Origin: Thermosulfurimonas dismutans
GTDB lineage: Bacteria > Desulfobacterota > Thermodesulfobacteria > Thermodesulfobacteriales > Thermodesulfobacteriaceae
DNA length: 32,000 nucleotides
Assembly (NCBI RefSeq): GCF_001652585.1
Contig: NZ_LWLG01000005.1
Location: forward strand, 65,895-97,894
Reading direction: 5' to 3'
The number at the start of each line of letters is the position of its first letter. Within the stretch, counting starts at the first letter, position 1. Shown here one piece after another: positions 3,497-26,327 of the stretch. A model generated the notes under the pieces. That model did no database searches. It was not told the DNA's origin and was given only the letters and a program-made list of their open reading frames with translations. Made by a program: the position numbers and the translations under genes.

Positions 3497-4974
3497 GTTA
3501 TCAACCCCAATGCCTTCCGTAAAATTACTAGAGCGTCACCGATAGTTATCTGTCCATCCGGTGCCGGTACACCGTTTTCAATAGGAGCCACGTCCGCATG
3601 GCACTTATCCTCATCGCTTGGTGTCTCAAGCCCTAAAGCAAACCGCAGGGCCACCAGGGCGTCCCCAATGTTCACCTGACCGTCACGGTTCCCCAACGGG
3701 GCCACGTCGCCGTCGGGGGTGCAGTTCCCCCAACCGGGCCAAATGGCGGTATCTGTTTCGCTTATACGGAGGCGGAGCGTACGACCATCAGAAAGCTCGA
3801 AAGAAACCGTCTCTCCCAGTGTTCCATTTAGAGAAATTTTCAAAGTGTTTAAATCTATAAAATCCGCCGAAACAGAAACTCCTGAAGGATACCTATACCG
3901 ATAACTTCTGATAAGATCGGTGCCATTGGCCGGCACAAAATAAAAAGCATATGTCTGCCCTGAGCGTACCGGCAATTCTATATCGAAAGCATCAATCCTA
4001 TAATAAGGAAATTCGAGACTACGAGTGTAAAATTCCCAGGAAAAATCTTTTGTCTCTCCGTCTATGTTAAAAATAGCTTCTACGGTATATTTCTCTCCCC
4101 ATTCGAGTCTACTTTGAGGAAAAAGGGCAAATTCAAAAGCGGAAAATCTCCTGTTTGGATCAGAGGCTTCATCCATTAACAAAGTAGAAACCAAATTTCC
4201 CGCAGAATCATAAAGGTTAAAGCTGAACATTTGTACGGTATTTACTTTGTAAGGATTGAATTGTACGGAAATCGGATATCCGCTTACGCTTCGATCCGGC
4301 AAAGGATCAGGAAACTCTTCATAGAAGACCGGAGGAACGGTGTCTCCGGGAGGAGGCCATCTCACCACGAGAGGGTTATCGGTAGCCACGATTGAAGGAT
4401 CTTTTCTGGTGCCCAAATCGTAAACATAATAAACGGTTCCTCTATCATCAATAGCTTTTCCGAAACCTATTTCGTCAAAGTAAAAAGATAAAAAACCAAA
4501 GCGATGGTATATGGCCGAAAAGAGATCGTCTATGGATTCCTGAAAATTTTCCTCCCCCCAGGATAAATTTTCCCCGATTGCTTTATAGTTATAGCCTGCG
4601 GCCGCAGCTCGATCGGCCGGAGTCACACCGGTAAAATAAGGAAGCCCGGGAGTTTCAGTGTGCCCTATGTCCTGGTTGGTGGCTATGTAGCGGGCATGAG
4701 ACTCGGCAGCCTGCGTCAGGGCCTGATTTTCAGAAAAAGGAATCATACCCACCGAAGATCTCAAGGCGTTGAGATATTGGAGATAACTTCCATAAGCCTG
4801 GCGAGTAACACGAGAGGGTCCGTGAAAGAGCGGCCTTTGAAAAATTCTTTCTCGCCAACTCTCAACCCCCGCAAGGTCTCCGGAAAAACCGTGCTCCGGA
4901 AGGAAAGCCGCCCCCCATAAAATCAGTGCAAACCAAAAAACCTTACATAATTTGGGCCAGAGAGACTTTTTCAT
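3490..4974 (-). CDS. Secreted CAP/SCP (PR-1-like) domain protein with C-terminal dockerin-like module
   Basis: The ORF is 494 aa with signal peptide MKKSLWPKLCKVFWFALILWGAAF. A CAP-domain pattern runs at about aa 61-162 (YLNALRSSVGMIPFSENQALTQAAESHARYIATNQDIGHTE..DRAAAAGYNYKAIGENLSWG). An unassigned middle region follows. The terminal 77 aa (3493-3723) are the dockerin-like module. Confidence 0.85.
   Translation of the reverse strand: MKKSLWPKLCKVFWFALILWGAAFLPEHGFSGDLAGVESWRERIFQRPLFHGPSRVTRQAYGSYLQYLNALRSSVGMIPFSENQALTQAAESHARYIATNQDIGHTETPGLPYFTGVTPADRAAAAGYNYKAIGENLSWGEENFQESIDDLFSAIYHRFGFLSFYFDEIGFGKAIDDRGTVYYVYDLGTRKDPSIVATDNPLVVRWPPPGDTVPPVFYEEFPDPLPDRSVSGYPISVQFNPYKVNTVQMFSFNLYDSAGNLVSTLLMDEASDPNRRFSAFEFALFPQSRLEWGEKYTVEAIFNIDGETKDFSWEFYTRSLEFPYYRIDAFDIELPVRSGQTYAFYFVPANGTDLIRSYRYRYPSGVSVSADFIDLNTLKISLNGTLGETVSFELSDGRTLRLRISETDTAIWPGWGNCTPDGDVAPLGNRDGQVNIGDALVALRFALGLETPSDEDKCHADVAPIENGVPAPDGQITIGDALVILRKALGLITW
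3493..3723 (-). other. Dockerin-like module (C-terminal, 77 aa)
   Basis: CTPDGDVAPLGNRDGQVNIGDALVALRFALGLETPSDEDKCHADVAPIENGVPAPDGQITIGDALVILRKALGLITW. Confidence 0.75.
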
Positions 4975-5442: not shown

Positions 5443-7344
5443 TTATGGTCCTATCTCCGGAAGGAATTTTAATGTTTTGCTATCATAGCCAGAAACAGAA
5501 GTGAAGCTAAAATCGAGATAGAATCTATTTCGAGCGTCGCTTCTAACAAGAGAATTGTAAACCCCGGGATACATAATCTCGACTCCGTAAGGTTCTATAG
5601 CAACCCAAGTATTTACGGAACTCCAGAGTCCCATTCCTCCTTCATAAGCATCACAGGAAAATTCATAGTATCTACCACAATTTAGATTTACCTCATAAAA
5701 AAATCCCGGAGCATGGGCCATAAAATCCACCCCGAAGGAGCCGTTTTCGCTGGCCAACCGCGGATTTGATACGTAAACAAAGAAATCACCGCTTGCGTTT
5801 CGTGCGATCTTGACCACGATGCCGTTTTGGTTGTAAAAAATCGGCACTGCACCCCAATCCGTAGCGTTTCCGTCTATCGCTATGTCAGCTTCTGGTATAA
5901 CGTAGGTCTCAAGGGGCTCATCCCAGTCTATCATTTCCACTCCGGATCGGAAAAGCTCTATTCTAGTCCGATTGGCATAATCCATAAAAACATCTCCAAA
6001 AAGAAGAGCCCTAGGCGTGATTTGACCGCTTACAAGATCGTAAACCGTGGCGTTTCCGGTAGAAGTTGCGTATTCTAAATAAATATCGAATTTTCTTTTG
6101 GGGTAATAGTAACCGTCGCCACCGTCCACATAATGCAGGGTCTCGTTGGCGGCTACGATCCAGGCCAATTCGGCTGAAGGATCACTGAAGGCGGTCTCAA
6201 GACTCGCAAGCACCCTTGTCGCGGCCTGGGCTATGACCACCGAGGCTGGATCATCCAGGTTAAAGGCATGGTTCTGTCTGGCCCTGAGCGCCTCTTCCGA
6301 AAGCGTCGCAAATTCGTTCACTATTTCCTCAAAAGTTTGTCTAGCCTGCGAAAAGGCCTGCTTGAATTCTTCAAGTTTGGACGGGTCTCTATAGGTTAGG
6401 AGTTGGGTATTGTTCATAAAAAATGTATATAGGGTTTCGTTGGAAGTTCCGTTAAAGGAAGTGCCATTCAGGGTTCCGTTTGCTACCAGAAGGAGATCCC
6501 TTATATCCGTGCCGTTCACCAACCAGTTGTTAGCGCTTATATCCAGGGATTCGATATAAAGGCAGACGGCCTTCCAGAACTTAGCCAGAAATCGCATGAT
6601 TTTAACATCCAGCGCATCAAAATACACCGTAGTCCCGTCGGGAAAGGTAAGACTGGCCAGATTACCAGCCGCCCGGGTTCCGGAAGCGGCAAGGACCTGC
6701 GAAAACTCGGCATCGGCCTGATCCAGCCTGGAAATCACATCCACCATCACGGTAAGGATTTCTCCGGCATAGTCTGGAGCCGTGAGAAGATTATAGAGAA
6801 TGTTAGCGGAAGAAGCATTGACGGTATCCAGGTCTACCTTGAGAACCTGGTTGAAGAAATCCCGATGATCGTTATACACCGTAAAAAGCAGGCCTGCTCC
6901 TTTCAGGATACGAGCCTCAGAGGTGTTCGGAACGGCATTAAACATATCCAGCAATTGTGTGTAATTTCCTTCCGAGGGATTTTCCAGGAAATCAATCAAG
7001 GCCTCCTTTAGATCTTCTACCGTTGCGGCATTCCAGCTTACGAGCTGAAGGGCCTTGCGCAGGATCACAAGCGCATCCCCGATGGTAATCTTCCCATCGG
7101 GATTCGGCATACCGTCCGCCCCGAGAGGGGCTACATCCGCATGACATGTATCCTCCTGGGTGGGCGCCTCAAGTCCTAAAGCAAAACGCAGAGTAACCAG
7201 GGCGTCACCTATATTCACCTTTCCATCGCGATTCCCCAGCGGAGCCACGTCGCCGTCGGGCGTGCAGAGCGCCAATCCAATGGCCCCAAACATTCCCCAC
7301 CAGGCGAAAAGGATCAAAAGGAACTTTACAAGCCATCCTTTCAT
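5443..7344 (-). CDS. Secreted protein with N-terminal dockerin-like module; remainder unassigned
   Basis: The ORF is 633 aa with signal peptide MKGWLVKFLLILFAWWGMFGAIGLAL. The dockerin-like module (7033-7266) follows immediately. I could not assign the remaining ~530 aa to any family. Confidence 0.85.
   Translation of the reverse strand: MKGWLVKFLLILFAWWGMFGAIGLALCTPDGDVAPLGNRDGKVNIGDALVTLRFALGLEAPTQEDTCHADVAPLGADGMPNPDGKITIGDALVILRKALQLVSWNAATVEDLKEALIDFLENPSEGNYTQLLDMFNAVPNTSEARILKGAGLLFTVYNDHRDFFNQVLKVDLDTVNASSANILYNLLTAPDYAGEILTVMVDVISRLDQADAEFSQVLAASGTRAAGNLASLTFPDGTTVYFDALDVKIMRFLAKFWKAVCLYIESLDISANNWLVNGTDIRDLLLVANGTLNGTSFNGTSNETLYTFFMNNTQLLTYRDPSKLEEFKQAFSQARQTFEEIVNEFATLSEEALRARQNHAFNLDDPASVVIAQAATRVLASLETAFSDPSAELAWIVAANETLHYVDGGDGYYYPKRKFDIYLEYATSTGNATVYDLVSGQITPRALLFGDVFMDYANRTRIELFRSGVEMIDWDEPLETYVIPEADIAIDGNATDWGAVPIFYNQNGIVVKIARNASGDFFVYVSNPRLASENGSFGVDFMAHAPGFFYEVNLNCGRYYEFSCDAYEGGMGLWSSVNTWVAIEPYGVEIMYPGVYNSLVRSDARNRFYLDFSFTSVSGYDSKTLKFLPEIGP
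7033..7266 (-). other. Dockerin-like module (N-terminal, directly after the signal peptide)
   Basis: CTPDGDVAPLGNRDGKVNIGDALVTLRFALGLEAPTQEDTCHADVAPLGADGMPNPDGKITIGDALVILRKALQLVSW. Confidence 0.75.
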
Positions 7345-7420: not shown

Positions 7421-10051
7421 TTACCAGTTGACAAGTCCCAGGGCCTTACGCAGGATCACCAGGGCGTCGCCGATGGTGATCCTTCCGTCCGGCTGCGGCG
7501 TGCCGTCCGGCCCGAGCGGGGCCGCGTCCGCATGGCACTTATCCTCCTCGCTCGGGGTCTCAAGCCCCAGGGCGAACCGCAAGGTCACCAAGGCGTCGCC
7601 TATGTTGACCTTCCCATCACGCGCCCCCAGCGGAGCCACATCGCCATCGGGCGTGCACACCGGCACATATAGACTCTTAATCACGGGTAATCTGATAGCC
7701 AAATACTGGTCTACTGGAGAAAAACCGTAATATTCTTGTACAAAATTCGCTTTCATATGAAAAAGAGCATATTTGTTTCTATCATAGCCAGAATAGCAAA
7801 TCACACCTTTCTGTAACTCATCTGTAAAATTAGCTACCTCGATATGAAAATTGGAATCTTCTGGAGGCGGAGGCAAATACCATTCCGCGGGATCACTCAT
7901 TGCCTCCACGGAAATGTAAGGCAAGAAGGGGCGAAAATCAAAACATATCCTTTCTTGCCGGACTAGCATCTCCGGAATCACAGGAAAATTGTTTAATACT
8001 TGATAAAGCATAGATTCAGGAGAAAACTCCCAAGACCTAAGCCACGAAGAATAGATGACCGAGCCGCCGTTGTACTGGCTGAGATGTAGGAGATGCGAAG
8101 TTTCCGGCTCAAAAACTAATAAAAAATCCCTCCCGGCTTCTGAGAGCAGCGGAAGTCCACTTGTGGAATCCTTCACCTGGCGTACGAAGAGTCTGAGAGA
8201 CTTAAGGCTTGTGCTTTTAAACTCTTTAAGACTGAACGGTTGCCCGCTCAACACCCTTAACTTCCCAGTGGGAAAGGCCGAACCATTTATGTAGACTAGT
8301 ACGAAGTACTCGCCTGACCCATTCAGCTTAAATTCTAGATTTTCGGAATCCACTACTTTAAGCTCCGGGGGAGTAAAGATAGGAATGTCCTCCTCGGCCC
8401 ACACCAAAATCTTTTGCCAAAGGTCGTCGTCCGTGACACCAAAAATTTCAGGAAAGACCTCCTCGTGCTTCCGATATGCCAAGGCCTTCCAGTATTCAAC
8501 TATCTTTTCTTGTGGTGTATTTGCCCAAAAAATCGGAAAAACTACACTATTCATTGAAGAGGACATGACATAACACTCAGTGGTTGCTCCTCCACAACTG
8601 TACAAAAGTTCGTTCGATCTTAGATGAATAAAATTTTCCGGAATTTTGCCCGAGGTTATAGCTTCTCTGGCCGTAGCATGCCTGGAATTGCGCGAGTGAC
8701 CATAGTAAGGATTCCGAGAGAAGGTTATCACCAGGCCTTCATGCCGCCACATAGGAATAATCTCATAGTCACTCCCTAGAGCCCGCGAAAGGTTTAACAC
8801 ATGATCAAAAGTGTGAGCAGATTCATGCGTAAATACATCCACAGCAGCTATGTGAGAAGAAAGGCCACCAATAATGTGCCAAAACACCGTTCCTTCTACA
8901 TAAGTAGCAACGGTAACTTCATTGGAACACGCAAAAACATCTTCTTCTGGAATGTTTCCCGAAAGAAAACGACATAAATCTTGGGCAAATTCTATATCCG
9001 CTGAATAGTAATAAACCGTTAGGGCCGGGCCCCAATCTTTTTCAAATCCCCAATAAGCGAAATAGCCCGTGTCTTTGGCCCGCTGAAGATATTTAAGGAG
9101 CCGTTCCGCATAGGGCCTTAGGAAAGCCTTGCTTTTCGGCCAGTAAACCACAAAGTTCTCGCTAAAGAGCTCGTCTACCTCCGTCCCAGTCGGCCCCACT
9201 ACTACCACCGACTCGAAACACTCACTACCGTCCCCTAAGCAGAGCTTCGGATAATATATTCCTGGATTCTCGTAACCGTAGTAGAAATCTGTCACGTCGG
9301 AGTTTGTCCTGTTCAAGATAAAGTCGAAGATTCCGTCGCCTTCCAGATCCAGCTTAAGGGCCGGGCAGGCTCCAAAACACCACACTTTGAAGCGCACCTT
9401 AGCCCCCTGAAGCACCACGCCCGGCTGAGGCTCAAACCTCTTTAAACGGAAGTTACCCTCTCTTACGAATCGCAAATAAGGCCTGGGAACCAAGCCTGTA
9501 TTATCCACCCCTCCATAAGGGTGGTCTTCTCCCCAATCCAGACGCCACAGCCAGCGGTCCTGAGAAACCATCCAGAAACTGTCTTTCGGCCAGACGGGAG
9601 CGTCCGCTATCACAGCCCTGCTGTAACCTTCGGCTTCTTGGAAATTGATCTTTAAATAAAAAAGTTTCTTTTGATTCGTTTTAGGAATAGGAACTCTGAG
9701 CCATCCAGGGCCTTGGGATAGCGCCTCGCCAATTTTCGTTTTCGACGTAATTTCATCGCCATTGACAGAAATCTCGTAGACCAAAAGTTTCGTCCCGGGA
9801 GCGTTCACAAGAAGATCAATAGCTACCGTATCTTCGGGAGCCTCCACGACGATACCAGTGGTATCGCCCCATTCGGCAAGAGCAAAAGACCTTAAAGGAG
9901 GCAAAGAGGTAGTATAAAGTGGATAAAATACTTCTTGAGCGAAACCGGCTTGCCACAAAATAAACATATACAAGATAAACAACAAAATAAAAGTTGCCTT
10001 TTCATGACAAACTTTAAGCAAGGAACGGCAACGGTCAATATCAACTTTCAT
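7421..10051 (-). CDS. Secreted peptidase-MA-like (HExxH) protein with C-terminal dockerin-like module; paralogue of 926..3496
   Basis: The ORF is 876 aa and aligns by eye with the 856-aa protein over its whole length. It has HESAHTFDH..PMWRHEGL and a hydrophobic signal-like segment (FILLFILYMFILWQAGFAQE). The start at 10051 has only a weak, adjacent AGGA, so the exact start is uncertain. Confidence 0.8.
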   Translation of the reverse strand: MKVDIDRCRSLLKVCHEKATFILLFILYMFILWQAGFAQEVFYPLYTTSLPPLRSFALAEWGDTTGIVVEAPEDTVAIDLLVNAPGTKLLVYEISVNGDEITSKTKIGEALSQGPGWLRVPIPKTNQKKLFYLKINFQEAEGYSRAVIADAPVWPKDSFWMVSQDRWLWRLDWGEDHPYGGVDNTGLVPRPYLRFVREGNFRLKRFEPQPGVVLQGAKVRFKVWCFGACPALKLDLEGDGIFDFILNRTNSDVTDFYYGYENPGIYYPKLCLGDGSECFESVVVVGPTGTEVDELFSENFVVYWPKSKAFLRPYAERLLKYLQRAKDTGYFAYWGFEKDWGPALTVYYYSADIEFAQDLCRFLSGNIPEEDVFACSNEVTVATYVEGTVFWHIIGGLSSHIAAVDVFTHESAHTFDHVLNLSRALGSDYEIIPMWRHEGLVITFSRNPYYGHSRNSRHATAREAITSGKIPENFIHLRSNELLYSCGGATTECYVMSSSMNSVVFPIFWANTPQEKIVEYWKALAYRKHEEVFPEIFGVTDDDLWQKILVWAEEDIPIFTPPELKVVDSENLEFKLNGSGEYFVLVYINGSAFPTGKLRVLSGQPFSLKEFKSTSLKSLRLFVRQVKDSTSGLPLLSEAGRDFLLVFEPETSHLLHLSQYNGGSVIYSSWLRSWEFSPESMLYQVLNNFPVIPEMLVRQERICFDFRPFLPYISVEAMSDPAEWYLPPPPEDSNFHIEVANFTDELQKGVICYSGYDRNKYALFHMKANFVQEYYGFSPVDQYLAIRLPVIKSLYVPVCTPDGDVAPLGARDGKVNIGDALVTLRFALGLETPSEEDKCHADAAPLGPDGTPQPDGRITIGDALVILRKALGLVNW
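7424..7657 (-). other. Dockerin-like module (C-terminal, 78 aa)
   Basis: CTPDGDVAPLGARDGKVNIGDALVTLRFALGLETPSEEDKCHADAAPLGPDGTPQPDGRITIGDALVILRKALGLVNW. Confidence 0.75.
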
Positions 10052-10097: not shown

Positions 10098-10916
10098 TCA
10101 ATTACATTCCGAAACGATCAAATGAGGCCGACAGCCTACCGAACGTCCGTCGAGATCAAAACAAGAAGAATGTACCTGAAAATCAGAAGCAGAAAGAACG
10201 CTGTCCCCTTCTCCCTTCAATCGAAAGACCATTTTCACCAGAGAAGCGCCGTTGGACGGAAGCCCCGAGGCGTTCATTACGCCCACCTTCACCTTCCGCC
10301 CCAGATCGTTGAATCCCAACATGGTCTGCGGATAATCTCCCGCCAGGCGCACTCCAAATCCAGCGTCAAACTCTACTCTATCCTGGGGATACTCCACACT
10401 CAAATCCACGCCCCCAATGAAGGCCTCACTTTCCACCCCCACTTCCACGGTACACCGGAGCACCTTAGGAGAAACTCCCTCTCGGGCCTCCTCCGCCTCA
10501 AATTCCTCCGCATTGCCTTCTTCCATCGAATTCCCCCTTTCTTCCGGGATAGATGATCGCAAAGAAGACGAAGAGTTCCGCCCTTCTTCTCCAGCCCACC
10601 GGGTTTCGGATGCAGATGCAGAAACACCCCCTTCTGAAACCGCGCCTTTCCCCCAAGAACTTTCCCCTGCGGAGTTTTCCCCCCAGGACCGTTTATTTCC
10701 ATAGGCATCCACATAATAGACCCCACCACGGGATTTCGCGGCCTCTTTCCTTCCGAAACTTTGCCTTGCCATCGCCGGCCCCCCAGCTCTCCTGGAGGAA
10801 AAATCACCGGACGTACTCTGTTTCCCTGAAGCCCCTTCCTCCCCAGCCGGAGGGCCGCCTCCACAGGCTACCAGGATTAACAACAACGCGAGATAAAAAG
10901 GTAATATCTTCTTCAT
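10098..10916 (-). CDS. Lipoprotein with a long low-complexity linker and a C-terminal cohesin-like module
   Basis: The ORF track starts at TTG 10928. I prefer the ATG at 10916 (MKKILPFYLALLLILVAC, lipobox LVAC), which overlaps the upstream stop as ATGA (10913-10916). A ~150-aa G/S/E/R-rich linker follows. The cohesin-like module is at 10101-10463. Confidence 0.8.
   Translation of the reverse strand: MKKILPFYLALLLILVACGGGPPAGEEGASGKQSTSGDFSSRRAGGPAMARQSFGRKEAAKSRGGVYYVDAYGNKRSWGENSAGESSWGKGAVSEGGVSASASETRWAGEEGRNSSSSLRSSIPEERGNSMEEGNAEEFEAEEAREGVSPKVLRCTVEVGVESEAFIGGVDLSVEYPQDRVEFDAGFGVRLAGDYPQTMLGFNDLGRKVKVGVMNASGLPSNGASLVKMVFRLKGEGDSVLSASDFQVHSSCFDLDGRSVGCRPHLIVSECN
10101..10463 (-). other. 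Cohesin-like module (lipoprotein type, Cys-rich C-terminus)
   Basis: VLRCTVEVGVESEAFIGGVDLSVEYPQDRVEFDAGFGV...KVKVGVMNASGLPSNGASLVKMVFRLKGEGD..SCFDLDGRSVGCRPHLIVSECN. This matches the cohesin pattern of an xGGxDFxxxYD-like strand, a G.v.igv...G.....G.l..v.F strand, and a terminal f.dl.G. Confidence 0.6.
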
Positions 10917-13900
10917 TGATACCCCCAACTTACCAATCCTAAAGCCTTACGCAGAATCACCAGGGCATCTCCGATGGTGATCTTTCCGTCGGGATTCGGC
11001 CTTCCGTCCGCGCCAAGCGGAGCCACGTCCGCATGACACCGGTCCTCCTCCGTCGGCGTCTCAAGCCCGAGGGCAAACCGTAGGGTTACCAGGGCATCGC
11101 CAATGTTCACCCACCCGTCACGGTTACCCAGCGGGGCCACATCGCCGTCGGGGGTACAGCTTATCACATTGACCCGACAGGTCCCATTTTCCACCTTTAT
11201 TGGCACCGCCGTGCCGGTCAAATCGTAACCCTGGATCGAAGAGATATTTATCGTCACCTCCCCTGTCACATCCAAACCGGGCTCCAAAGTAACTTTTAAA
11301 ACCTCTCCCTTTCCGGAAAAACCGCTAGCCTTAATCAGCCCCACCCGATAACTACCAAGATTGCTATTGTTGGTCTGCACCGTAGCCCCTTGTGCCAGAC
11401 CTACGGCCGTAACCCCCTTTGCACTTAAACCCGCATCAAAACCCAGGCTTAGATCCAACCCGCCTAGGGTAAGGTTTTTGGTGTCTATCTCGAACACTAT
11501 GTCAAACATCTTCCTCGCATTTACTTCTTTTGAACAAATCATAGTTACTTCTATAGGATTCGTATCCACATAAACCTTGGCTCCTAGTCCACAACCGGAA
11601 AAAGTATTACCTTCGAGATTGGCAAATTCTACCTGTGGAATCTCCAGATCAACCACCGTTTGAGCTACGGATATAGGATTCACCCGGAAAATCAGACGCA
11701 AGATTTCGCCCGAACCCGAAATACCGGTAGCCGAGATAATTCCAATCCTTACCACACTTCCATTGTCGTAGGGAGTAATAAGTCCACCCTGAAGGATTCT
11801 TGCACCTTCTACTCGATCAAAACTCAACACCGCAGGATTATATGTAACGGTAAAACTTATTCCTCCGATGGTAGTCGAAGTTCCATTCAGGATCACAGGA
11901 ACAACTACTTCAGATCCAGGGTGTCCATAAACGTTTTGAAGTATCAGAGTATCCACACCATTTTCACAGGAAGGAGATTGGGGACTAGCATGACAGCTAC
12001 CGTTATACCAGTAACCACCTGCCCTTACGCAATCCGCTTCCGTAGTGCACAGATTCAAGTGTTGAGCATCACAACTCGGTTCTTGATTAGTTGTCGCAAC
12101 CTCAATCACTAAAGGATTTGAAATTGCCGTAGCACCTTTATCATCTTTGGCCACACAACGCGCTTTATAAGTTCCAGCCTTGTCATAGATATGGGTAACT
12201 CTTCCATCATAATCGGTCACATTATTCCCGTCTCCGAACTGAAAGGTATATTCCACTATGCGACCGTCGGGGTCGTGAGCTGTGCAGACAAACTCTACAG
12301 ACAATGGCGCCTCTACAGAAGTCGGATTAGCGCTAAATAAGTCTATCACCGGCGGCTGATTCTGTGTTTGGATAGGCTCAAACCGCGCCGTGCAACTCTT
12401 CGAGTCATCCATCACCAGAGGACATATTCTATCGTTCCCGCATTCCGCACAATCACCTTCCCAGCCGGCAAAACTATATCCCTCATCAGGTATAGCTTTA
12501 AGCGTTACCTTTGTCCCACTATCATAATCTGTATAACACTCCCCTCCACAATCTATCTTCCCGCCTCCACCCTCTACACTAACACTAAGCCGATACCTAT
12601 CTCTCTCAAAGATCACCTCTATTATGTGGTTGTCTTTAACGTCTCTAAACGGGTAACTCGTCATCGCACCCTTCGAGACCCCATCTACCACTACATCCTT
12701 AACATGATACCCCTTGTCAGGCTCTATCGTAAAAATCTGGCTTCCACCACACTCCACAGTTACATTCCCAGAAGGACTTATACTCCCACCAACTCCTGCC
12801 TTGGCCTCTATCGTGTACTCATTTAACCCAAAATTCACCACCACACTACAATTGCCTGTCACCTGTCCCGTCGTAAAAATGTTCCCACTTAATGTCCCAC
12901 CACACGTGCTATCCACTCCCTCCACGTGATAACACGCATCAGGTGTCACCGTAAATCTTGCCACGCCCCCATGCGTAACCTTCTGACTCAATGGCTCTAC
13001 CGTTCCCTTCCCATTTCCTACTCTCGCCGTTACCATATACTTCTTAAGCTCAAACTGCGCCGAGCAACTTTTCGCACCATCCATCACCACAGAACAGGTG
13101 GCGTTGCTACCACATCCCGCACAGTCTCCTCCCCAACCAGTGAAGATTGAATCAATATTCGGAAAAGCAGTAAGCCTTACAGTTATTCCTCTGTCGAAAC
13201 TAGCACTACAAGTACTTCCGCAGTTTATGCCAGAAGGTGAACTTGTTATTGTTCCGGAGCCAGTCCTGCTTACACTCAGGGTATATCTTGTAACTTGGGG
13301 GATTGCTAAAGCTGTGCTTCCACCGGATACATTGCCTGCGTTATCTATTGCACACAGTCTGTAGTAATATGTTCTACCATTTGTTAAACCGGTATGCGTA
13401 TACGATGTTGCTATTGGTGAAGATAGAGTCAATCTTGTTCCCGAAGTGCATCCTGAGCTAGGATAACCGGATGTGCTATAGACCAACTTAAACTCTTTTA
13501 AACCACTTCTACTATCACTTACAGACGACCAACTCAGAGTAACACGAGCATCCCCTCCAGTAGCGGTAAGAGATGGATTTGAAGGTGGGGTCGTGTCTAA
13601 GATTATACAATCATGATACCAGCTAGAAATATTACCTTCAGAATCTCTAAATTTAACATACACACATTTGTTTCCATCTCCACTAGGTAAACTCCACATT
13701 TTCGTATTAGAAAAATTTTTCCAATCATATGGATAACAGGTTGTTTGTGAATTTTTAATACACACTTGTATCTGATCAATAGGTGTATAGTCATCGTAAA
13801 CATTAAGGTTCAACACAACTGAAGTCGATTTTGTATACAGTGCACCATTTTCTATTAAAATACTTCCTGTAGGTGGCTTTGTTACTATCTTAAAAGAGTA

Positions 13901-15616
13901 GCTATTAACCTCCCATCCTTGTTGGTCTATAGTAGTACTATTTTGAGGATAATTTTTATAATGACACCAAAAATCGTCAACACTAGTCATTGTAGATCTT
14001 ACATAAAACTTAAAGTTACCTGGAGATAATTTGGAAGTATCAACAAGTAAAGTCACCGTTTTTGTTGTTCCCGATTTCCATTGTCCTCCAAATTCAATCA
14101 TAGGATACCTAGCAGTCATTGAATTACAACTACTATTGTAAATTGTATCTCCAGGGAGTTTTTTATATACATTTAGTCCTCCACTGTTTTGAATAGAAAT
14201 TGCGGAAAGATCCTTTAGATAAGGAAATGAAATAGTTATAGAGCCATAAATTGCGTCACTACCCTTATTATTCGCATTTATATTAATTTTAACTAAATTT
14301 CCTTTTATTACAGAAGTAGGGTATGTAATATTAGTAATTATTGGCCTTGGAGGATTTCCAAAAATCAAATTTTCAAATTTGTATTCATTTAAAAACTGAA
14401 CTACTTCAGCATCAGATAAATGTAAATCTTCATTACATAGTACTTTAGAACTTTCCCAATAAATTTGAGCTAACACTGAAGGATTTCTTTTTAAAATCTT
14501 AGAAGTTATATAAATATATTCTGGAAAAAGCTTTTCCCGATCCCAAAAAAAAATTCCTCCAATATAACTACCGTTACCATATATTATATCTTTTACACCA
14601 CTCCAATCACAATATGAATTATATGCCAAATTGCAATCATATCTATCAAGAAGAACTAAATATTCATGCATATTTTTGCCAACATTATCGAAAAGACTTG
14701 ACAACGATTTTCTCCACAATCTATACGAAGTATTGTGTAGTTGATTTACCAATTCCCACAAAGAATTATATAAATGTACTAATTTTGCCAAATAAAATGC
14801 CGCGTCTGTTTGACACATAAAGGCCTGAGCATAAGAAATTGCAAATTTCATAAGTATAGGCATATTTTGATTCATAATAGCCGTAGCTGAATTTAAAGCA
14901 TCAACAACATCCCAAGCAGTTGCTAATACGGGACTAAAGACTGCTATAGAATCCGGTAAAATATTGAGATACTGTTTCCAAATTATTTCTCCTGCTACTG
15001 CAGCTACATTTTTAGAAAGATTAGTTAATTTTCTATCTATAATAGTCTTTATTGCTGCAATTTGACTACCTATATCATGATGTATGTAAAGCAACGCATA
15101 AATTATTCTATTTTGAGGACTTTTTTCATTTTTTATAACATAGAATACTTCCCAATAAATTATCTTTTCTTTCGTTATCAATTTACGATACTTATATTCT
15201 ATTGTAATTATTAAATACAACTTCTTAGGCAGATCTACAACAGAAAATGACAAAATTTGTGAAAAATTTATAAAAAATTTATTAGCTTCTGAAGCTGAAT
15301 AAGACAATCTAGGAATTATATCTCTACCGTTTTTATCTTTTATATAAAAGTAAACTGTGCCACTTTCAGGGGGAATTATTTTATAAAATCTTTTTAAAGA
15401 ATTACCGTTATATATAACCAATCCATTAGACTCTACAGGATAAACATAACTACTAATAGATAAAGACGATGGCTCATATAAGTATGATATCAATGTCCAG
15501 GGTTCTATTGGAGATTGTAAAGTTATAGAAAAAGCAGTACTAATTATTACATTCAAAACGAAAAAACTTAAAACAACTATTTTAGAAAAACTACATATCT
15601 TTAAACTTTTTATCAT
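10913..15616 (-). CDS. Giant scaffoldin-like surface protein: unknown N-terminal region, Ig-like/FN3, InlB-B-repeat-like modules, PKD, two cohesin-like modules, C-terminal dockerin-like module
   Basis: The ORF is 1567 aa with a signal-like N-terminus (MIKSLKICSFSKIVVLSFFVLNVIISTAFS). An FN3-like segment contains RVTLSWSSVSDSRSGLKEFKLVYS..YYYRLCAIDNAGNVS. B-repeat-like modules carry the GW(G/E)GDCA(G/E)CG motif. A PKD-like segment reads LSVEFVCTAHDPDGRIVEYTFQFGDGN..HIYDKAGTYKARCVAKDDKG. Cohesin-like modules lie at 11561-11971 and 11159-11560. The dockerin-like module is at 10925-11158. Confidence 0.9.
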   Translation of the reverse strand: MIKSLKICSFSKIVVLSFFVLNVIISTAFSITLQSPIEPWTLISYLYEPSSLSISSYVYPVESNGLVIYNGNSLKRFYKIIPPESGTVYFYIKDKNGRDIIPRLSYSASEANKFFINFSQILSFSVVDLPKKLYLIITIEYKYRKLITKEKIIYWEVFYVIKNEKSPQNRIIYALLYIHHDIGSQIAAIKTIIDRKLTNLSKNVAAVAGEIIWKQYLNILPDSIAVFSPVLATAWDVVDALNSATAIMNQNMPILMKFAISYAQAFMCQTDAAFYLAKLVHLYNSLWELVNQLHNTSYRLWRKSLSSLFDNVGKNMHEYLVLLDRYDCNLAYNSYCDWSGVKDIIYGNGSYIGGIFFWDREKLFPEYIYITSKILKRNPSVLAQIYWESSKVLCNEDLHLSDAEVVQFLNEYKFENLIFGNPPRPIITNITYPTSVIKGNLVKININANNKGSDAIYGSITISFPYLKDLSAISIQNSGGLNVYKKLPGDTIYNSSCNSMTARYPMIEFGGQWKSGTTKTVTLLVDTSKLSPGNFKFYVRSTMTSVDDFWCHYKNYPQNSTTIDQQGWEVNSYSFKIVTKPPTGSILIENGALYTKSTSVVLNLNVYDDYTPIDQIQVCIKNSQTTCYPYDWKNFSNTKMWSLPSGDGNKCVYVKFRDSEGNISSWYHDCIILDTTPPSNPSLTATGGDARVTLSWSSVSDSRSGLKEFKLVYSTSGYPSSGCTSGTRLTLSSPIATSYTHTGLTNGRTYYYRLCAIDNAGNVSGGSTALAIPQVTRYTLSVSRTGSGTITSSPSGINCGSTCSASFDRGITVRLTAFPNIDSIFTGWGGDCAGCGSNATCSVVMDGAKSCSAQFELKKYMVTARVGNGKGTVEPLSQKVTHGGVARFTVTPDACYHVEGVDSTCGGTLSGNIFTTGQVTGNCSVVVNFGLNEYTIEAKAGVGGSISPSGNVTVECGGSQIFTIEPDKGYHVKDVVVDGVSKGAMTSYPFRDVKDNHIIEVIFERDRYRLSVSVEGGGGKIDCGGECYTDYDSGTKVTLKAIPDEGYSFAGWEGDCAECGNDRICPLVMDDSKSCTARFEPIQTQNQPPVIDLFSANPTSVEAPLSVEFVCTAHDPDGRIVEYTFQFGDGNNVTDYDGRVTHIYDKAGTYKARCVAKDDKGATAISNPLVIEVATTNQEPSCDAQHLNLCTTEADCVRAGGYWYNGSCHASPQSPSCENGVDTLILQNVYGHPGSEVVVPVILNGTSTTIGGISFTVTYNPAVLSFDRVEGARILQGGLITPYDNGSVVRIGIISATGISGSGEILRLIFRVNPISVAQTVVDLEIPQVEFANLEGNTFSGCGLGAKVYVDTNPIEVTMICSKEVNARKMFDIVFEIDTKNLTLGGLDLSLGFDAGLSAKGVTAVGLAQGATVQTNNSNLGSYRVGLIKASGFSGKGEVLKVTLEPGLDVTGEVTINISSIQGYDLTGTAVPIKVENGTCRVNVISCTPDGDVAPLGNRDGWVNIGDALVTLRFALGLETPTEEDRCHADVAPLGADGRPNPDGKITIGDALVILRKALGLVSWGYQ
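10925..11158 (-). other. Dockerin-like module (C-terminal, followed by GYQ)
   Basis: CTPDGDVAPLGNRDGWVNIGDALVTLRFALGLETPTEEDRCHADVAPLGADGRPNPDGKITIGDALVILRKALGLVSW. Confidence 0.75.
11159..11560 (-). other. Cohesin-like module 2 of the 1567-aa protein
   Basis: MFDIVFEIDTKNLTLGGLDLSLGFDAGLSAKGVTAVGLAQGATVQTNNSNLGSYRVGLIKASGFSGKGEVLKVTLEPG..INISSIQGYDLTGTAVPIKVENGTCRVNV. It is clearly related to module 1 but divergent from it. Confidence 0.6.
11561..11971 (-). other. Cohesin-like module 1 of the 1567-aa protein
   Basis: VDTLILQNVYGHPGSEVVVPVILNGTSTTIGGISFTVTYNPAVLSFDRVEGARILQGGLITPYDNGSVVRIGIISATGISGSGEILRLIFRVNPISVAQTVVDLEIPQVEFANLEGNTF. This fits the classical cohesin pattern closely (pGdtV.vPV....iGg.dF.l.Ydp.vL....V..G.....G.i.i......gi.g.G.l..i.F.v......f.d..g). 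Confidence 0.7.
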
Positions 15617-15652: not shown

Positions 15653-15868
15653 CTATTCACACCCTAGCACCGTCAGTCTTGCCCTACACCTAACTGCATG
15701 GCCGTCGAGGTCGAAGTAGGTGGCGGAAGCACCGAAATCGTTTGCGGTAAGGGTGGTTCTGCCTTCGTCTTTCACCACAAAGGCCAGGTGCACCAGCGGA
15801 GAGCCATTAGCGGGATGACCCGGAGCGTTCATAAGTCCTACCTCGCAGTAGAACTTTTGGCCCCCCAA
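15653..15868 (-). pseudogene. 5'-truncated relic of a lipoprotein-type cohesin-like gene
   Basis: The 71-aa ORF (..VGLMNAPGHPANGSPLVHLAFVVKDEGRTTLTANDFGASATYFDLDGHAVRCRARLTVLGCE) aligns with the C-terminal half of the 10098..10916 cohesin-like module (VGVMNASGLPSNGASLVKMVFRLKGEGDSVLSASDFQVHSSCFDLDGRSVGCRPHLIVSECN). The N-terminal half, linker and signal are missing. Its apparent start sits inside a terminator hairpin. Confidence 0.65.
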
Positions 15869-15903: not shown

Positions 15904-18675
15904 TTACTGACAGGTAAATTCCACTATCTGTGCCGGACAAGCAAAAGTATTCCCGGAAAGATCCGAACAGGTAGCATTACCATCAGGAATAATTGCAAGC
16001 TCGCTCTCCTGAGGCTCACTACACAATCCCTGATTCTGAGGAGTTGAGAAGGTAAGCTTAAGCACCGCTGAGCCGTCCGCAGGAAATCCACCGGCTGAAA
16101 TGAGCCCAATCTTCACATGGGTTCCATTATCATTGGGAACCACCAGTCCTCCCTGAGCCGCTCCAATAGCTACCACATTATCAAATCCAAGCGCAGTCTC
16201 TGGATAGTCCACGGTCACATCCACTCCTCCAATCGTACCATTGGCCGTAACCCCGAGCTTCAGTGTGCAGGTGTAAGCCTTGGGCTGAGTCACCCCGACC
16301 GAGGTCTGGCCGGACACACCATCCACCGTCACCCGCACCGTGGAATTCTGACTGCCGGCGGTAAGCGTCACCGCAGCCACCCCTACCTTATCTACATCGT
16401 TCCAGCCGATGGGAATGCTCACCTGGCTCAACACTCCATCACCCTGAGTCACCTCAAAAGCCGCATCTCCTATGGCATCCTTGTTAGTGCAGGAATCGAA
16501 ATCAGCAAGGTGAATGGTGGCCTTGATGGTGGAGTTGCCCCCGGCGCACACGGTAGCAGGCTCGGCCCGCACATCAATTCCCGTAACCGTGCACGGATCC
16601 TGAGCCACCTGAATGGCAACCTCGTTGGAAGTTTTGCCCTCAGAGGTGGCCTTCACCTTGACCTCACCCGGAGCGTTAACCGTGAGCGTGGTGCTAGCCT
16701 TACCGGTGGCATCGGTCTGAGCCGTAGGCGGATTCACGTACCCATCACCGCTCACTACCTCAAAGGTCACCTCTTTGCCCGAAAGATCGCCGCACTGCTC
16801 GGCATTAACCACCTGCACCTGAGCCATAAGTTGTGTGCTGTCTCCGGCCGTAAGAGAGGTTTTATTGGCGCTAAGCGTCACCCCCGTAACCGTACACGGA
16901 TGTTCCGCCACCTGAATAGTAACCTCGTTGGAAGTCTTGCCCTCAGAGGTGGCCTTCACCTTGATCTCCCCCGGAGCATTGGCCGTAAGGGTGGTGCTGG
17001 CATTACCACTAGCATCCGTCACCGTCGTGGCCGGGTTCACCGTCCCATCTCCGCTCACCACCTCAAAGGTCACCTGCTTTCCGGAAAGATCAGCACAGAT
17101 ATCCGGATTGACTACTTCTACTTGGGCCGTGAGATTGGCACTCTCGCCCGCCACGACCGAAATAGGGGTGGCGTTAAGGCTTACCGCCTTAACCGCACAC
17201 GGATCAGGGGCCACGTAAGACATAGCAACCCTACGATGTATTCCAGTGCAGGGATCCTCCACCAAAGCTACTAATTTAGCCATACCGGCTCCCTGAACTT
17301 CCAGTGGCGCTACCGCATATCCATCAGTATCAATATCTACTTCTATCTCCTTCTTTCCACCTGTGAAAGTAACCTGGCCTTTCACAATCTTAAATGTCAC
17401 CTTTCCGGAAGGAGTGCCATTTCCGGAAAGCGGAGCTACCATGGCTTTCACTTTCCATTGATTAGTAGTTTGATCAAAATATATCCCAGCCATTGAAATC
17501 TCATCCACACTATCAGCATTGCAAACCTTAATCAGCACGGGATTGGAGGTCCGGTTATCACTAGTTACAGCCGTAATCCTGAACACACTTCCCGCCGGAG
17601 CACTTCCGGCACATACTTGAGCGGAAGCTTCAGTAAGCGTATTACCCTGAACAGGATTGGGATTTATAGCAAGGGTGCCATTGGTGGCATTCCCTACAGG
17701 CATAGCGTCAAAAGCAATCTCACTTATCTGAGGCCCCTCTCCACATCCTATTACACCCGCGATTTTTGCCGTAAGTTTGCTACACACCTGTCCATCGGAA
17801 GAAATAATTATCCTATCTCCCGAAAGACCTACAGCATAAGAACAATAATTCTGAAGTGTAGAGCCGATCTGATCCAAAATATTTGTATAATTACCTGAAA
17901 TGGGGTTTCCGTTTACTTGCCCATCCATAACACCATCTTGGAGGTCCTGAAGAAGAGCTACAAACCCCTGCAACAACTTCTCCCACAGTGAAAGGAAATC
18001 CGTCTGAATCTGAAGGAGACGGCTTATGGCATCCGCCAGAACTCTATTATAAGGCGGCTCGTAATCCCTTATGCTAAAATGGTGCTCCGTAAAAAGTTTT
18101 TTGATATATTCTTCTCTTTCGCTACCGAATTCCTCTCGAGCCCGTTCTCGGACGTGGTACACCAGTGTCCTTACGGGCTCAAATTCCGGATCGTTTTCAA
18201 TTTGCGTAAAATTGTCACTATGTTTTTCCACTAGAGCACTGGTATCCACAGTAAGAAAGGCATAATATAGGGCACCTGAAATAATATCTGCCCCTTTGTG
18301 AACTACATTTCCATCTTCGTCCATAATAAACCCTTGGAGAGGAGGAGCCGCCAGAGTATCATTTCCGACCTGCATGGTACCGTTCTCACTCTTCAATGTA
18401 AGCCGAGTACAATTAGCTACCTCCACAGGATTTAGCTTGAACTGAAAATTTCCCTCCCCATCCGTTTGTCCGAGCTTCTTCAATTTCTTTCCGTCACACA
18501 GGAGCCACACAGTAGCGTTAGCCACCGGGTCCTTACTCACACTTCCAACGACCGTGGCTCCAGAGGTGGTACCGGAAGTCTCCTCTCCGCCACCACCTCC
18601 ACCACCTCCACAGGCCACAAGCAGCAAAGGAAGCACAAATACCCATAACCACAAACCCAACCTTCTCCAACTCAT
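15904..18675 (-). CDS. Lipoprotein with poly-Gly linker, CarboxypepD_reg-like and Big-like Ig repeats, and a C-terminal cohesin-like module (candidate anchoring scaffoldin)
   Basis: The ORF is 923 aa. It starts MSWRRLGLWLWVFVLPLLLVACGGGGGGGGEE (lipobox LVAC). VVGSVSKDPVANATVWLLCDGKKLKKLGQTDGEGNFQFKL resembles a carboxypeptidase-regulatory-like fold. Three Big-like repeats are present, two of them near-identical. The cohesin-like module is at 15907-16284. A GAAGGGGG Shine-Dalgarno sequence precedes the ATG. Confidence 0.9.
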   Translation of the reverse strand: MSWRRLGLWLWVFVLPLLLVACGGGGGGGGEETSGTTSGATVVGSVSKDPVANATVWLLCDGKKLKKLGQTDGEGNFQFKLNPVEVANCTRLTLKSENGTMQVGNDTLAAPPLQGFIMDEDGNVVHKGADIISGALYYAFLTVDTSALVEKHSDNFTQIENDPEFEPVRTLVYHVRERAREEFGSEREEYIKKLFTEHHFSIRDYEPPYNRVLADAISRLLQIQTDFLSLWEKLLQGFVALLQDLQDGVMDGQVNGNPISGNYTNILDQIGSTLQNYCSYAVGLSGDRIIISSDGQVCSKLTAKIAGVIGCGEGPQISEIAFDAMPVGNATNGTLAINPNPVQGNTLTEASAQVCAGSAPAGSVFRITAVTSDNRTSNPVLIKVCNADSVDEISMAGIYFDQTTNQWKVKAMVAPLSGNGTPSGKVTFKIVKGQVTFTGGKKEIEVDIDTDGYAVAPLEVQGAGMAKLVALVEDPCTGIHRRVAMSYVAPDPCAVKAVSLNATPISVVAGESANLTAQVEVVNPDICADLSGKQVTFEVVSGDGTVNPATTVTDASGNASTTLTANAPGEIKVKATSEGKTSNEVTIQVAEHPCTVTGVTLSANKTSLTAGDSTQLMAQVQVVNAEQCGDLSGKEVTFEVVSGDGYVNPPTAQTDATGKASTTLTVNAPGEVKVKATSEGKTSNEVAIQVAQDPCTVTGIDVRAEPATVCAGGNSTIKATIHLADFDSCTNKDAIGDAAFEVTQGDGVLSQVSIPIGWNDVDKVGVAAVTLTAGSQNSTVRVTVDGVSGQTSVGVTQPKAYTCTLKLGVTANGTIGGVDVTVDYPETALGFDNVVAIGAAQGGLVVPNDNGTHVKIGLISAGGFPADGSAVLKLTFSTPQNQGLCSEPQESELAIIPDGNATCSDLSGNTFACPAQIVEFTCQ
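15907..16284 (-). other. Cohesin-like module (lipoprotein type, Cys-rich C-terminus)
   Basis: CTLKLGVTANGTIGGVDVTVDYPETALGFDNVVAIGAAQGGLVVPNDNGTHVKIGLISAGGFPADGSAVLKLTFSTPQ...CSDLSGNTFACPAQIVEFTCQ. Confidence 0.6.
16600..17205 (-). repeat. Tandem 2 x 303-bp coding repeat (Big-like Ig domains); a third, divergent copy follows at ~16285-16599
   Basis: Unit A is DPCAVKAVSLNATPISVVAGESANLTAQVEVVNPDICADLSGKQVTFEVVSGDG..IKVKATSEGKTSNEVTIQVAE. Unit B is HPCTVTGVTLSANKTSLTAGDSTQLMAQVQVVNAEQCGDLSGKEVTFEVVSGDG..VKVKATSEGKTSNEVAIQVAQ. Long stretches are identical at the nucleotide level, e.g. aacctcgttggaagt(t/c)ttgccctcagaggtggccttcaccttga. Confidence 0.85.
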
Positions 18676-26325: not shown

Positions 26326-26327
26326 TT

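What the first reader, a model, noticed from the sequence alone, without database searches (positions are those of the whole stretch)
10913..15616. The 1567-aa protein combines two cohesin-like modules with its own dockerin-like module (adaptor or self-polymerising scaffoldin?)
The C-terminal ~350 aa read cohesin-like 1 (11561-11971), cohesin-like 2 (11159-11560) and dockerin-like (10925-11158), with essentially no linkers. Carrying both receptor and ligand allows hierarchical assembly: this protein docks on a lipoprotein cohesin and recruits two enzymes. If specificities are not separated, head-to-tail polymerisation is also possible. Its dockerin-like module is nearly the same as the enzyme-borne ones. 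The only conspicuous first-loop difference is Trp in RDGWVN, where the others have Q or K, plus a GYQ tail. How anchoring and cargo interactions are told apart is therefore an open question.
Basis: inference. Interest (0 to 1): 0.7.

Follow-up and report, generated by a model that had tools for sequence, protein, structure and literature searches.

The report
Cohesin-cohesin-dockerin adaptor protein, non-cellulosomal
A giant secreted protein of the sulfur-disproportionating vent bacterium Thermosulfurimonas dismutans really does end in two cohesin "sockets" and one dockerin "plug". It belongs to a 21-kb gene cluster for a non-cellulosomal protein-assembly system, a kind already reported in related anaerobes, and its plug shows no sequence sign of a separate specificity.

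Summary
ORF 10913-15616 (-) encodes the 1567-aa protein OAQ20917.1 of Thermosulfurimonas dismutans. Its last ~350 aa are cohesin 1 (aa 1216-1352), cohesin 2 (1353-1486) and a dockerin (1487-1564), abutting without linkers.

Cohesin 1 passes Pfam's threshold and its model matches type I cohesins (TM ~0.8). Cohesin 2 is a cohesin by profile comparison (hhalign 96.9%). The dockerin misses Pfam's threshold but matches canonical dockerins (hhalign 97.7%).

The protein sits in a co-directional cluster. The cluster holds two lipoproteins that each end in a cohesin, and six other proteins with the same dockerin.

The hierarchy idea is only partly supported. All seven dockerins are 71-92% identical and identical at the classical recognition positions. 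The unique Trp lies at Ca-loop position 7, one of the most variable sites among 107 family members. Cohesin 1 groups with an anchor cohesin. Cohesin 2 belongs to a subfamily that is always followed by this dockerin in other Thermodesulfobacteriota.

The likeliest reading is a single-specificity, branching or chain-forming network. No binding was tested.

Proteins with cohesins plus a dockerin are already described in ANME archaea, syntrophic sulfate reducers and Ruminococcus bromii. This is a new member of a known kind, of moderate interest.

The parts
10913..15616 (-). Gene for the 1567-aa secreted protein (OAQ20917.1), in this order: signal peptide, unknown N-terminal region, fn3, 4 InlB B-repeats, PKD, Cys-rich linker, cohesin 1, cohesin 2, dockerin
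13700..15616 (-). Low-GC (26-31%) 5' part of the gene. It encodes the signal peptide and about 640 aa with no detectable family.
   Evidence: the genome is 50.1% GC
12110..13588 (-). fn3 (aa 677-762), four InlB B-repeat domains (aa ~770-1082) and a PKD domain (aa 1086-1169), forming a stalk of Ig-like domains
11561..11971 (-). Cohesin 1 (aa 1216-1352)
   Evidence: Pfam above threshold; 2XDH match; model and Foldseek matches to type I cohesins
11159..11560 (-). Cohesin 2 (aa 1353-1486), a member of the subfamily that always precedes this dockerin
10925..11158 (-). Dockerin (aa 1487-1564): two repeats of a Ca-loop plus helix, with a 4- and a 9-residue loop insertion (DVAP type) and Cys1/Cys41
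10098..10916 (-). Lipoprotein p276 (lipobox LVAC; ATG at 10916 overlaps the upstream stop codon), with a C-terminal cohesin at about 10101-10475
15904..18675 (-). Lipoprotein p923 (lipobox LVAC; Big_1 and PKD domains), with a C-terminal cohesin at about 15907-16290
15653..15832 (-). Relic of the C-terminal half of a p276-type cohesin, just upstream of the 1567-aa gene
18778..21129 (-). p783: BNR/sortilin-type propeller plus fn3, with a C-terminal dockerin (18781-19011)
7421..10051 (-). p876: unknown protein with an HExxH motif and a C-terminal dockerin (7424-7657); paralogue of p856
5443..7344 (-). p633: unknown protein with an N-terminal dockerin (7033-7266) right after the signal peptide
3490..4974 (-). 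p494: CAP-domain protein with a C-terminal dockerin (3493-3723)
926..3496 (-). p856: unknown protein with an HExxH motif and a C-terminal dockerin (929-1162)
1..900 (-). 5' part of the GH114 gene (TDIS_1036), which runs off the window: Kazal-like module, dockerin (325-558), then the GH114 domain

Best explanation
The 1567-aa protein is the adaptor of a non-cellulosomal cohesin-dockerin assembly system in T. dismutans.

**Proposed mechanism.**
- It is exported by a Sec signal peptide.
- Its C-terminal dockerin plugs into a cohesin. That cohesin may be on lipoprotein p276 (translationally coupled), on lipoprotein p923, or on another copy of the protein itself.
- Its two cohesins offer sockets for the dockerin-tagged proteins of the same cluster: GH114, a CAP-domain protein, two HExxH proteins, a BNR propeller and p633.
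- All dockerins belong to one nearly invariant class, so the network is most likely promiscuous rather than two-tiered. Each copy uses one socket and supplies two, which would give branching or chain-like assemblies tethered to a membrane by the lipoproteins.

**Shown here:** the modules, their family membership, the gene cluster, the lipoboxes, the near-identity of the dockerins, and the recurrence of cohesin-plus-dockerin proteins in related genomes.

**Inferred:** every binding step, the cell-surface location, and a role in adhesion or matrix handling.
For: - **Module identity.**
- **Dockerin copies.** Seven intact dockerins lie in one co-directional cluster. They share 55-72 of 78 residues, and the helices are invariant.
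- **Family-wide pattern.** Across 107 distinct family members the helices are nearly invariant, while positions 16 and 53 are free to vary.
- **Anchors.** There are two lipoprotein cohesins. An ATGA overlap couples the 1567-aa gene to p276.
- **Cohesin grouping.** Cohesin 1 is nearest to the p923 anchor cohesin, at 58 bits and 48% identity over 63 aa.
- **Recurrence of the dyad.** All five clear members of the cohesin 2 subfamily carry this dockerin downstream, and four of them abut it directly (L030, L031, P0218, p1567).
- **Other mixed proteins.** Further cohesin-dockerin and dockerin-cohesin proteins occur in the lineage: P0018, P0059, P0096, P0012, P0081, P0140, P0153.
- **Precedents.**
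  - The dockerin of R. bromii Amy4 binds its own cohesin (PMC4611034).
  - ANME proteins carry one dockerin and up to five cohesins (PMC9012536).
  - Cohesin/dockerin proteins are reported as expressed putative adhesins in syntrophic sulfate reducers (PMC10553843).
Against: - No binding data exist.
- The dockerin misses Pfam's threshold.
- The cohesin 2 model is low-confidence.
- The four cohesins share only 23-38% identity in the multiple alignment, so they could have different partners.
- With no linkers, some sockets may be blocked.
- T. dismutans has two membranes. Only Sec or lipoprotein signals are seen, so the system could be periplasmic rather than on the surface.
- The rest of the genome could not be read. 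A second dockerin class elsewhere is therefore not excluded.
Confidence: 0.55

Rival explanations
1. Strict two-level hierarchy. The scaffold dockerin is specific for the lipoprotein cohesins, and the cargo dockerins are specific for cohesins 1 and 2. Variable loop residues such as Trp16 or Arg53 would do the discriminating.
For: - Trp16 and Arg53 are unique to this dockerin within the window.
- Trp occurs once among 107 family members.
- The gene is translationally coupled to an anchor lipoprotein gene.
- Positions 16 and 59, which are loop position 7 of each repeat, are both hypervariable and could in principle carry specificity.
Against: - Classical recognition positions are identical in all seven dockerins.
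- Position 7 of the loop binds Ca through its backbone and is not a known contact site (established knowledge of type I complexes).
- The scaffold dockerin is 92% identical to a cargo dockerin, that of p633.
- Cohesin 1 clusters with the p923 anchor cohesin, not with cohesin 2.
- Known hierarchical systems use clearly different dockerin types (PMC12484212).
Confidence: 0.12
2. Cohesin 2 and the dockerin form one intramolecular unit. Cohesin 2 would support or mask the adjacent dockerin, much as the X module does for type II dockerins. Only cohesin 1 would then be a free socket, and the protein would be a simple one-socket adaptor or a cargo.
For: - There is no linker between cohesin 2 and the dockerin.
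- The cohesin 2 subfamily is always found with this dockerin, abutting it in 4 of 5 cases.
- The top Foldseek hit is CipA Coh9-X-DocII, 4FL4.
Against: - Cohesin 2 is a clear cohesin homologue.
- Other proteins in the lineage carry the modules in the opposite order, dockerin then cohesin. That does not fit a fixed X-Doc-like geometry.
- The 4FL4 match has low TM (0.33-0.38) and an rmsd of 21 Å.
Confidence: 0.15
3. The modules are decayed or no longer bind. The protein is simply a large adhesin built of Ig-like domains, and the resemblance to scaffoldins has no functional meaning.
For: - Relics of a cohesin and of a dockerin gene, plus IS elements, show that the island is in flux.
- The gene is a GC mosaic.
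- The dockerin falls below Pfam's threshold.
Against: - The dockerin is under very strong conservation across genomes and cargo types, with a mean column identity of 74% and invariant helices.
- All Ca-ligand positions are present once the loop insertion is allowed for.
- The reading frames are intact.
Confidence: 0.08

Closest known systems
Adaptor and primary scaffoldins of cellulosomes (C. thermocellum CipA, A. cellulolyticus ScaA/ScaB, R. flavefaciens ScaA/ScaH)
   Same: Cohesins plus a C-terminal dockerin sit on one secreted polypeptide. Separate anchoring proteins carry cohesins. Cargo is tagged with dockerins. Cohesin 1 has the type I cohesin fold.
   Different: - There is no CBM and no cellulases, and the host is a CO2-fixing sulfur disproportionator.
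- The anchors are lipoproteins, not SLH or sortase proteins (one search lists only those two).
- There are no Pro/Thr linkers.
- The scaffold dockerin is of the same class as the cargo dockerins rather than a distinct type.
Cohesin/dockerin proteins of ANME archaea and their syntrophic sulfate-reducing partners (PMC9012536, PMC10553843)
   Same: These are non-cellulolytic anaerobes. They have proteins with one dockerin and several cohesins. A putative adhesin or matrix role is proposed, and cohesin/dockerin modules are very similar across clades.
   Different: Those reports are domain inventories. T. dismutans is free-living and was not covered, and no paper links it to dockerins. The cohesin 2-dockerin dyad and the lipoprotein anchors were not found described in the text passages retrieved from those two papers.
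Ruminococcus bromii Amy4 (amylosome)
   Same: One protein carries both a cohesin and a dockerin. Its dockerin recognises its own cohesin, which allows self-aggregation.
   Different: Amy4 is a Gram-positive amylase with known substrates, and its binding has been shown experimentally. Here nothing has been measured.
Archaeoglobus fulgidus non-cellulosomal cohesin (PDB 2XDH)
   Same: It is the best sequence match to cohesin 1 in the PDB (E=4e-7; TM 0.78). It also comes from a thermophilic sulfur-metabolising organism.
   Different: The host is an archaeon. From my own knowledge, not checked here, its dockerin has canonical loops without the DVAP insertion.
X-module-dockerin dyad of type II systems
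   Same: A beta-sandwich module is fused directly to the dockerin without a linker.
   Different: Here the neighbouring module is a true cohesin homologue, not an X module.

Membership tests
Cohesin (Pfam PF00963) | Sequence match to the family model above the curated threshold | tested here: met
   Cohesin 1 scores 33.3 bits against a cut-off of 24.1. Pfam does not report cohesin 2, but it scores 41 bits against an independent cohesin HMM and its subfamily profile gives hhalign 96.9%.
Cohesin (Pfam PF00963) | Nine-stranded beta-sandwich (jelly-roll) fold | tested here: met
   For cohesin 1, pLDDT is 70-88 and Foldseek TM is ~0.8 with rmsd ~2.1 Å to 5NRM, 5NRK, 6KGE and 1AOH. Cohesin 2 is inconclusive: it is predicted all-beta, but with pLDDT 45-54.
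Cohesin (Pfam PF00963) | Binds a dockerin | not testable with these tools
   This needs binding assays or complex prediction.
Dockerin type I (Pfam PF00404) | Sequence match to the family model above the curated threshold | tested here: not met
   The score is 12.7 bits against a cut-off of 22.9. The other six reach at most 20.6 bits. NCBI nevertheless names p633 a 'dockerin type I repeat-containing protein'.
Dockerin type I (Pfam PF00404) | Tandem duplicated segment of a Ca-binding loop (D/N at positions 1, 3, 5, 9, 12) followed by a helix | tested here: met
   - hhalign to canonical dockerins gives 97.7% over both repeats.
- The ligand positions are D6/N12/D14/N18/D21 and D44/N55/D57/T61/D64, with 4- and 9-residue insertions after position 2.
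- The hybrid dockerin P0086 bridges the two loop types.
Dockerin type I (Pfam PF00404) | Three-helix fold and Ca-dependent cohesin binding | tested here: inconclusive
   The model shows helices at 292-302, 310-314 and 335-345 with pLDDT 53-78. Binding cannot be tested.
Hierarchical (adaptor) scaffoldin | Cohesin(s) and a dockerin on one polypeptide | tested here: met
Hierarchical (adaptor) scaffoldin | The scaffoldin dockerin is of a different specificity class from the cargo dockerins | tested here: not met
   It is 77-92% identical to the cargo dockerins, with identical residues at positions 10, 11, 17, 18 and 22 of both repeats. Its only unique residues lie at hypervariable positions.
Hierarchical (adaptor) scaffoldin | A cell-bound anchoring protein carries the cognate cohesin | tested here: inconclusive
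   Two lipoproteins with C-terminal cohesins are present, and one is translationally coupled. Whether their cohesins are cognate, and whether they are surface-exposed, is unknown.
Self-associating cohesin+dockerin proteins (Amy4 type) | The protein's own dockerin is recognised by its own cohesin | not testable with these tools
   The sequence gives no reason to exclude it. The single dockerin class and the recurrent cohesin-dockerin dyads are compatible with it.

The most novel reading that the evidence does not exclude
In a set of Thermodesulfobacteriota, one nearly invariant dockerin acts as a universal plug. The cohesin 2-dockerin dyad acts as a plug-and-socket extender cassette. Any protein that carries the cassette occupies a socket and regenerates one. 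Lipoprotein-anchored, open-ended protein chains or meshes would then self-assemble outside the cell or in the periplasm. This would be a protein-based matrix or display system that works without any specificity hierarchy.
Probability: 0.25. Interest if true: 0.65.

Novelty: new member of a known kind. Interest (0 to 1): 0.4.

Why it matters
Cohesin-dockerin pairs are best known from cellulosomes and are widely used as building blocks in synthetic biology. This example comes from a thermophilic autotroph that degrades no plant material. It offers a compact, cultivable model (growth at 65 °C) for the puzzling non-cellulosomal systems seen so far only in genomes of uncultured ANME archaea and sulfate reducers.

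If one dockerin class serves both anchoring and cargo, the system would show how complexes assemble without a specificity hierarchy. It would also supply heat-stable parts, apparently braced by conserved cysteine pairs that may form disulfides. If a hierarchy exists despite 92% identity, it would reveal a new specificity determinant in the Ca-binding loop.

Tried and rejected
- **Second structure job.** I submitted cohesin 2 plus dockerin as a single sequence without an alignment. The model has pLDDT 41 and is unusable.
- **First structure job.** It gives no coordinates or inter-domain error map, so I could not tell whether the dockerin packs onto a cohesin within the chain.
- **N-terminal 648 aa.** There is no PDB match and no homologue. 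The homologue search did not return even the protein itself, so this is weak evidence for an orphan domain.
- **Flanking DNA of T. dismutans.** Two look-ups found nothing on record. Cohesins and dockerins elsewhere in the genome are therefore uncounted. T. dismutans was also absent from the genome scan.
- **Word-indexed search with the four cohesins.** It mostly returned relatives of the small P0018 family. The exhaustive search was more useful.
- **Context of P0018.** Uninformative.
- **Cargo proteins p856, p876 and p633.** They have no PDB, Pfam or NCBIfam match beyond the dockerin.
- **Literature.** A search for AF2375 was swamped by chromosomal cohesin papers. The review by Peer et al. 2009 is not held.
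- **Rejected reading: a cellulosome.** There are no cellulases or CBMs, and the host is autotrophic.
- **Rejected reading: Trp16 as a recognition residue.** It is loop position 7 and hypervariable.


Full report
**Source and gene**

The window comes from Thermosulfurimonas dismutans. The 1567-aa product of ORF 10913-15616 (-) is identical to OAQ20917.1 / WP_153303772.1. Several neighbours are also exact matches to proteins of that species, on a 97,894-bp contig. T. dismutans is a thermophilic vent bacterium that grows on CO2 by disproportionating sulfur compounds. Its genome paper reports 50.1% G+C and, in the passages I searched, does not mention this system. No paper in the library combines the species name with 'dockerin'.

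Pfam finds four InlB B-repeats, a PKD domain, an fn3 domain and one cohesin above threshold (33.3 bits against 24.1) at aa 1224-1313. It also gives a sub-threshold Dockerin_1 match of 12.7 bits against 22.9. HMM envelopes place cohesin 1 at aa 1215-1354, cohesin 2 at 1353-1483 and the dockerin at 1487-1564.

- **Cohesin 1.**
  - It matches the A. fulgidus cohesin 2XDH at E=4e-7.
  - An AlphaFold model built with a 46-row alignment gives pLDDT 70-88 over cohesin 1.
  - Foldseek returns only cohesins at the top, with TM about 0.8 and rmsd about 2.1 Å to 5NRM, 5NRK, 6KGE and 1AOH.
- **Cohesin 2.**
  - It is poorly modelled (pLDDT 45-54).
  - It scores 41 bits against an HMM made solely from 21 cohesin units of other proteins.
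  - Its subfamily profile hits R. flavefaciens ScaB cohesins first in the PDB, at E about 0.006.
  - The same profile aligns to Pfam-verified cohesins by hhalign with 96.9% probability.
- **Dockerin.**
  - The profile of this subtype aligns to canonical dockerins with 97.7% probability over both repeats.
  - Its best PDB hits are R. flavefaciens group I dockerins, only marginally, at E 0.035.
  - The loops carry insertions after position 2 (DV-APLG-NRDG and DV-APLGADGRP-NPDG).
  - A metagenomic protein with one canonical and one inserted loop bridges the two forms.

**The surroundings**

Nine co-directional genes on the minus strand, from the window's left edge to 21129, all carry a cohesin or a dockerin.

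| Gene | Main features | Module |
|---|---|---|
| GH114 (runs off the left edge) | Kazal-like module, GH114 | dockerin |
| p856 | unknown, HExxH motif | dockerin |
| p494 | CAP domain | dockerin |
| p633 | unknown | N-terminal dockerin |
| p876 | unknown, HExxH motif | dockerin |
| p276 | lipoprotein | cohesin |
| p1567 | the protein in question | 2 cohesins + dockerin |
| p923 | lipoprotein, Big_1/PKD domains | cohesin |
| p783 | BNR propeller, fn3 | dockerin |

These assignments rest. Both lipoproteins have an LVAC lipobox. The stop codon of the 1567-aa gene overlaps the ATG of p276 (caATGAag), which suggests coupled translation. A terminator-like hairpin follows p923.

**Do the dockerins differ?**

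The seven dockerins share 55-72 of 78 residues. The scaffold's dockerin shares 60-72 with the others and is closest to that of p633, at 92%. Its only unique residues are Trp16 and Arg53. By the hhalign register, Trp16 is loop position 7. In the canonical Ca loop this position contributes a backbone oxygen. The classical recognition positions 10, 11, 17, 18 and 22 read I-G, L-R and G in both repeats of all seven dockerins, except G74Q in p633.

Among 107 distinct dockerins of this subtype collected from genomes and metagenomes, both helices are nearly invariant. Position 16 is one of the most variable sites, at 2.81 bits (I 26, T 26, K 17, Q 11, L 11, V 9, S 2, W 1). Position 53 also varies, at 2.19 bits. 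The Trp is therefore unique, but it sits where the family tolerates almost anything.

**Do the cohesins split into anchor and scaffold classes?**

They do not. Pairwise scores give four groups:
- C-terminal cohesins of lipoproteins: p923, p276 and P0118.
- A group found in dockerin-then-cohesin proteins.
- The cohesin 2 type.
- The small P0018 family.

Cohesin 1 is nearest to the p923 anchor cohesin. The cohesin 2 type is always followed by this dockerin. This holds in p1567, in two large alpha/beta-hydrolase-like proteins from other Thermodesulfobacteriota genomes (L030, L031), in P0218 and in L037. Four of these five abut the dockerin directly. Many further proteins in the lineage combine the same dockerin with a cohesin, in either order.

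The dockerin subtype occurs in many copies in a few Thermodesulfobacteriota genomes, on cargo of many kinds.

**Interpretation**

The most economical reading is a single-specificity network. Lipoproteins tether it. Dockerin-tagged proteins plug in. Proteins that carry both modules, including this one, extend or branch it.

This matches known behaviour elsewhere:
- The dockerin of Amy4 in R. bromii binds its own cohesin.
- ANME archaea encode proteins with one dockerin and up to five cohesins.
- Syntrophic sulfate reducers express cohesin/dockerin proteins that are regarded as adhesins and are very similar across clades.

Canonical cellulosomes, by contrast, use distinct dockerin types for anchoring, and use SLH or sortase anchors.

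A strict hierarchy, an intramolecular cohesin 2-dockerin unit, and loss of function all remain possible. I rank them lower, for the reasons given under the rival explanations. Binding, stoichiometry and cellular location are all untested. Because the organism has an outer membrane and only Sec or lipoprotein signals are visible, a periplasmic location cannot be excluded.

**Novelty and interest**

The protein is a new member of a known kind: non-cellulosomal, scaffoldin-like proteins with cohesins and a dockerin. Four features are worth a specialist's attention:
- the lipoprotein anchors;
- the single, extremely conserved dockerin class on both scaffold and cargo;
- the recurrent cohesin 2-dockerin cassette;
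- the fact that the host can be grown in culture.

The sequence evidence suggests that anchoring and cargo contacts are not told apart at all. I score interest at 0.4.

Noticed in passing
window 13700-15616 (-): The first ~1.9 kb of the 1567-aa gene is 26-31% GC. The rest of the gene is 44-59% and the genome is 50.1%. The drop starts at the start codon. The gene looks like a mosaic with a foreign 5' part, and that part encodes ~640 aa with no detectable relatives.
   Followed up: partly
window 15653-15832 (-): A 59-codon remnant of the C-terminal half of a lipoprotein-type cohesin lies about 35 nt upstream of the 1567-aa gene. It is 48% identical to p276. This points to a past duplication or insertion at this spot.
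   Followed up: yes
window 31105-31410 (-): A degraded copy of a Kazal-like module plus dockerin, with an in-frame stop. It is a paralogue of the N-terminus of the GH114 gene at the left edge, and it overlaps the start of ORF 29565-31151.
   Followed up: partly
window 21490-22368 (+) and ~31700-32000 (+): Transposase genes lie near the cohesin-dockerin island: one with HTH and rve_3 domains, and a second transposase-like reading frame (judged by eye from its translation) that runs off the right edge. A Rrf2-type regulator fragment lies at 28754-29152.
   Followed up: no
window dockerins (e.g. 10925-11158) and cohesins (11159-11560; 15907-16290; 10101-10475): All T. dismutans dockerins have a Cys pair (positions 1 and 41), which is rare among related dockerins. 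Cohesin 2 and the lipoprotein cohesins have conserved Cys near the first and last strands. These look like disulfide braces, perhaps a heat adaptation.
   Followed up: partly
window 926-3496 (-) and 7421-10051 (-): p856 and p876 are paralogues with an HExxH motif (HELAH at 2306-2332, HESAH at 8801-8827). They match no known family, and may be metalloproteases.
   Followed up: partly
loci L030 (1-3240) and L031 (1-2949): Large proteins in two other Thermodesulfobacteriota genomes carry an alpha/beta-hydrolase-like domain (judged by eye from the sequence; no family scan was run). They end in the same cohesin 2-type module fused directly to the same dockerin.
   Followed up: partly
proteins P0018, P0096, P0097 (locus L066 8001-8735): This is a family of small secreted proteins of about 250 aa. 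Each consists only of one cohesin fused to this dockerin, making it a minimal plug-and-socket unit.
   Followed up: partly
window 23722-26346 (-): An 874-aa protein has two WSC domains and a PAN domain. From general knowledge, these domains are better known from eukaryotes. It carries no dockerin.
   Followed up: no
protein P0086: A hybrid dockerin has one canonical loop (GDVDGDGKV) and one DVAP-type loop with an insertion. This shows how the subtype relates to canonical dockerins.
   Followed up: yes
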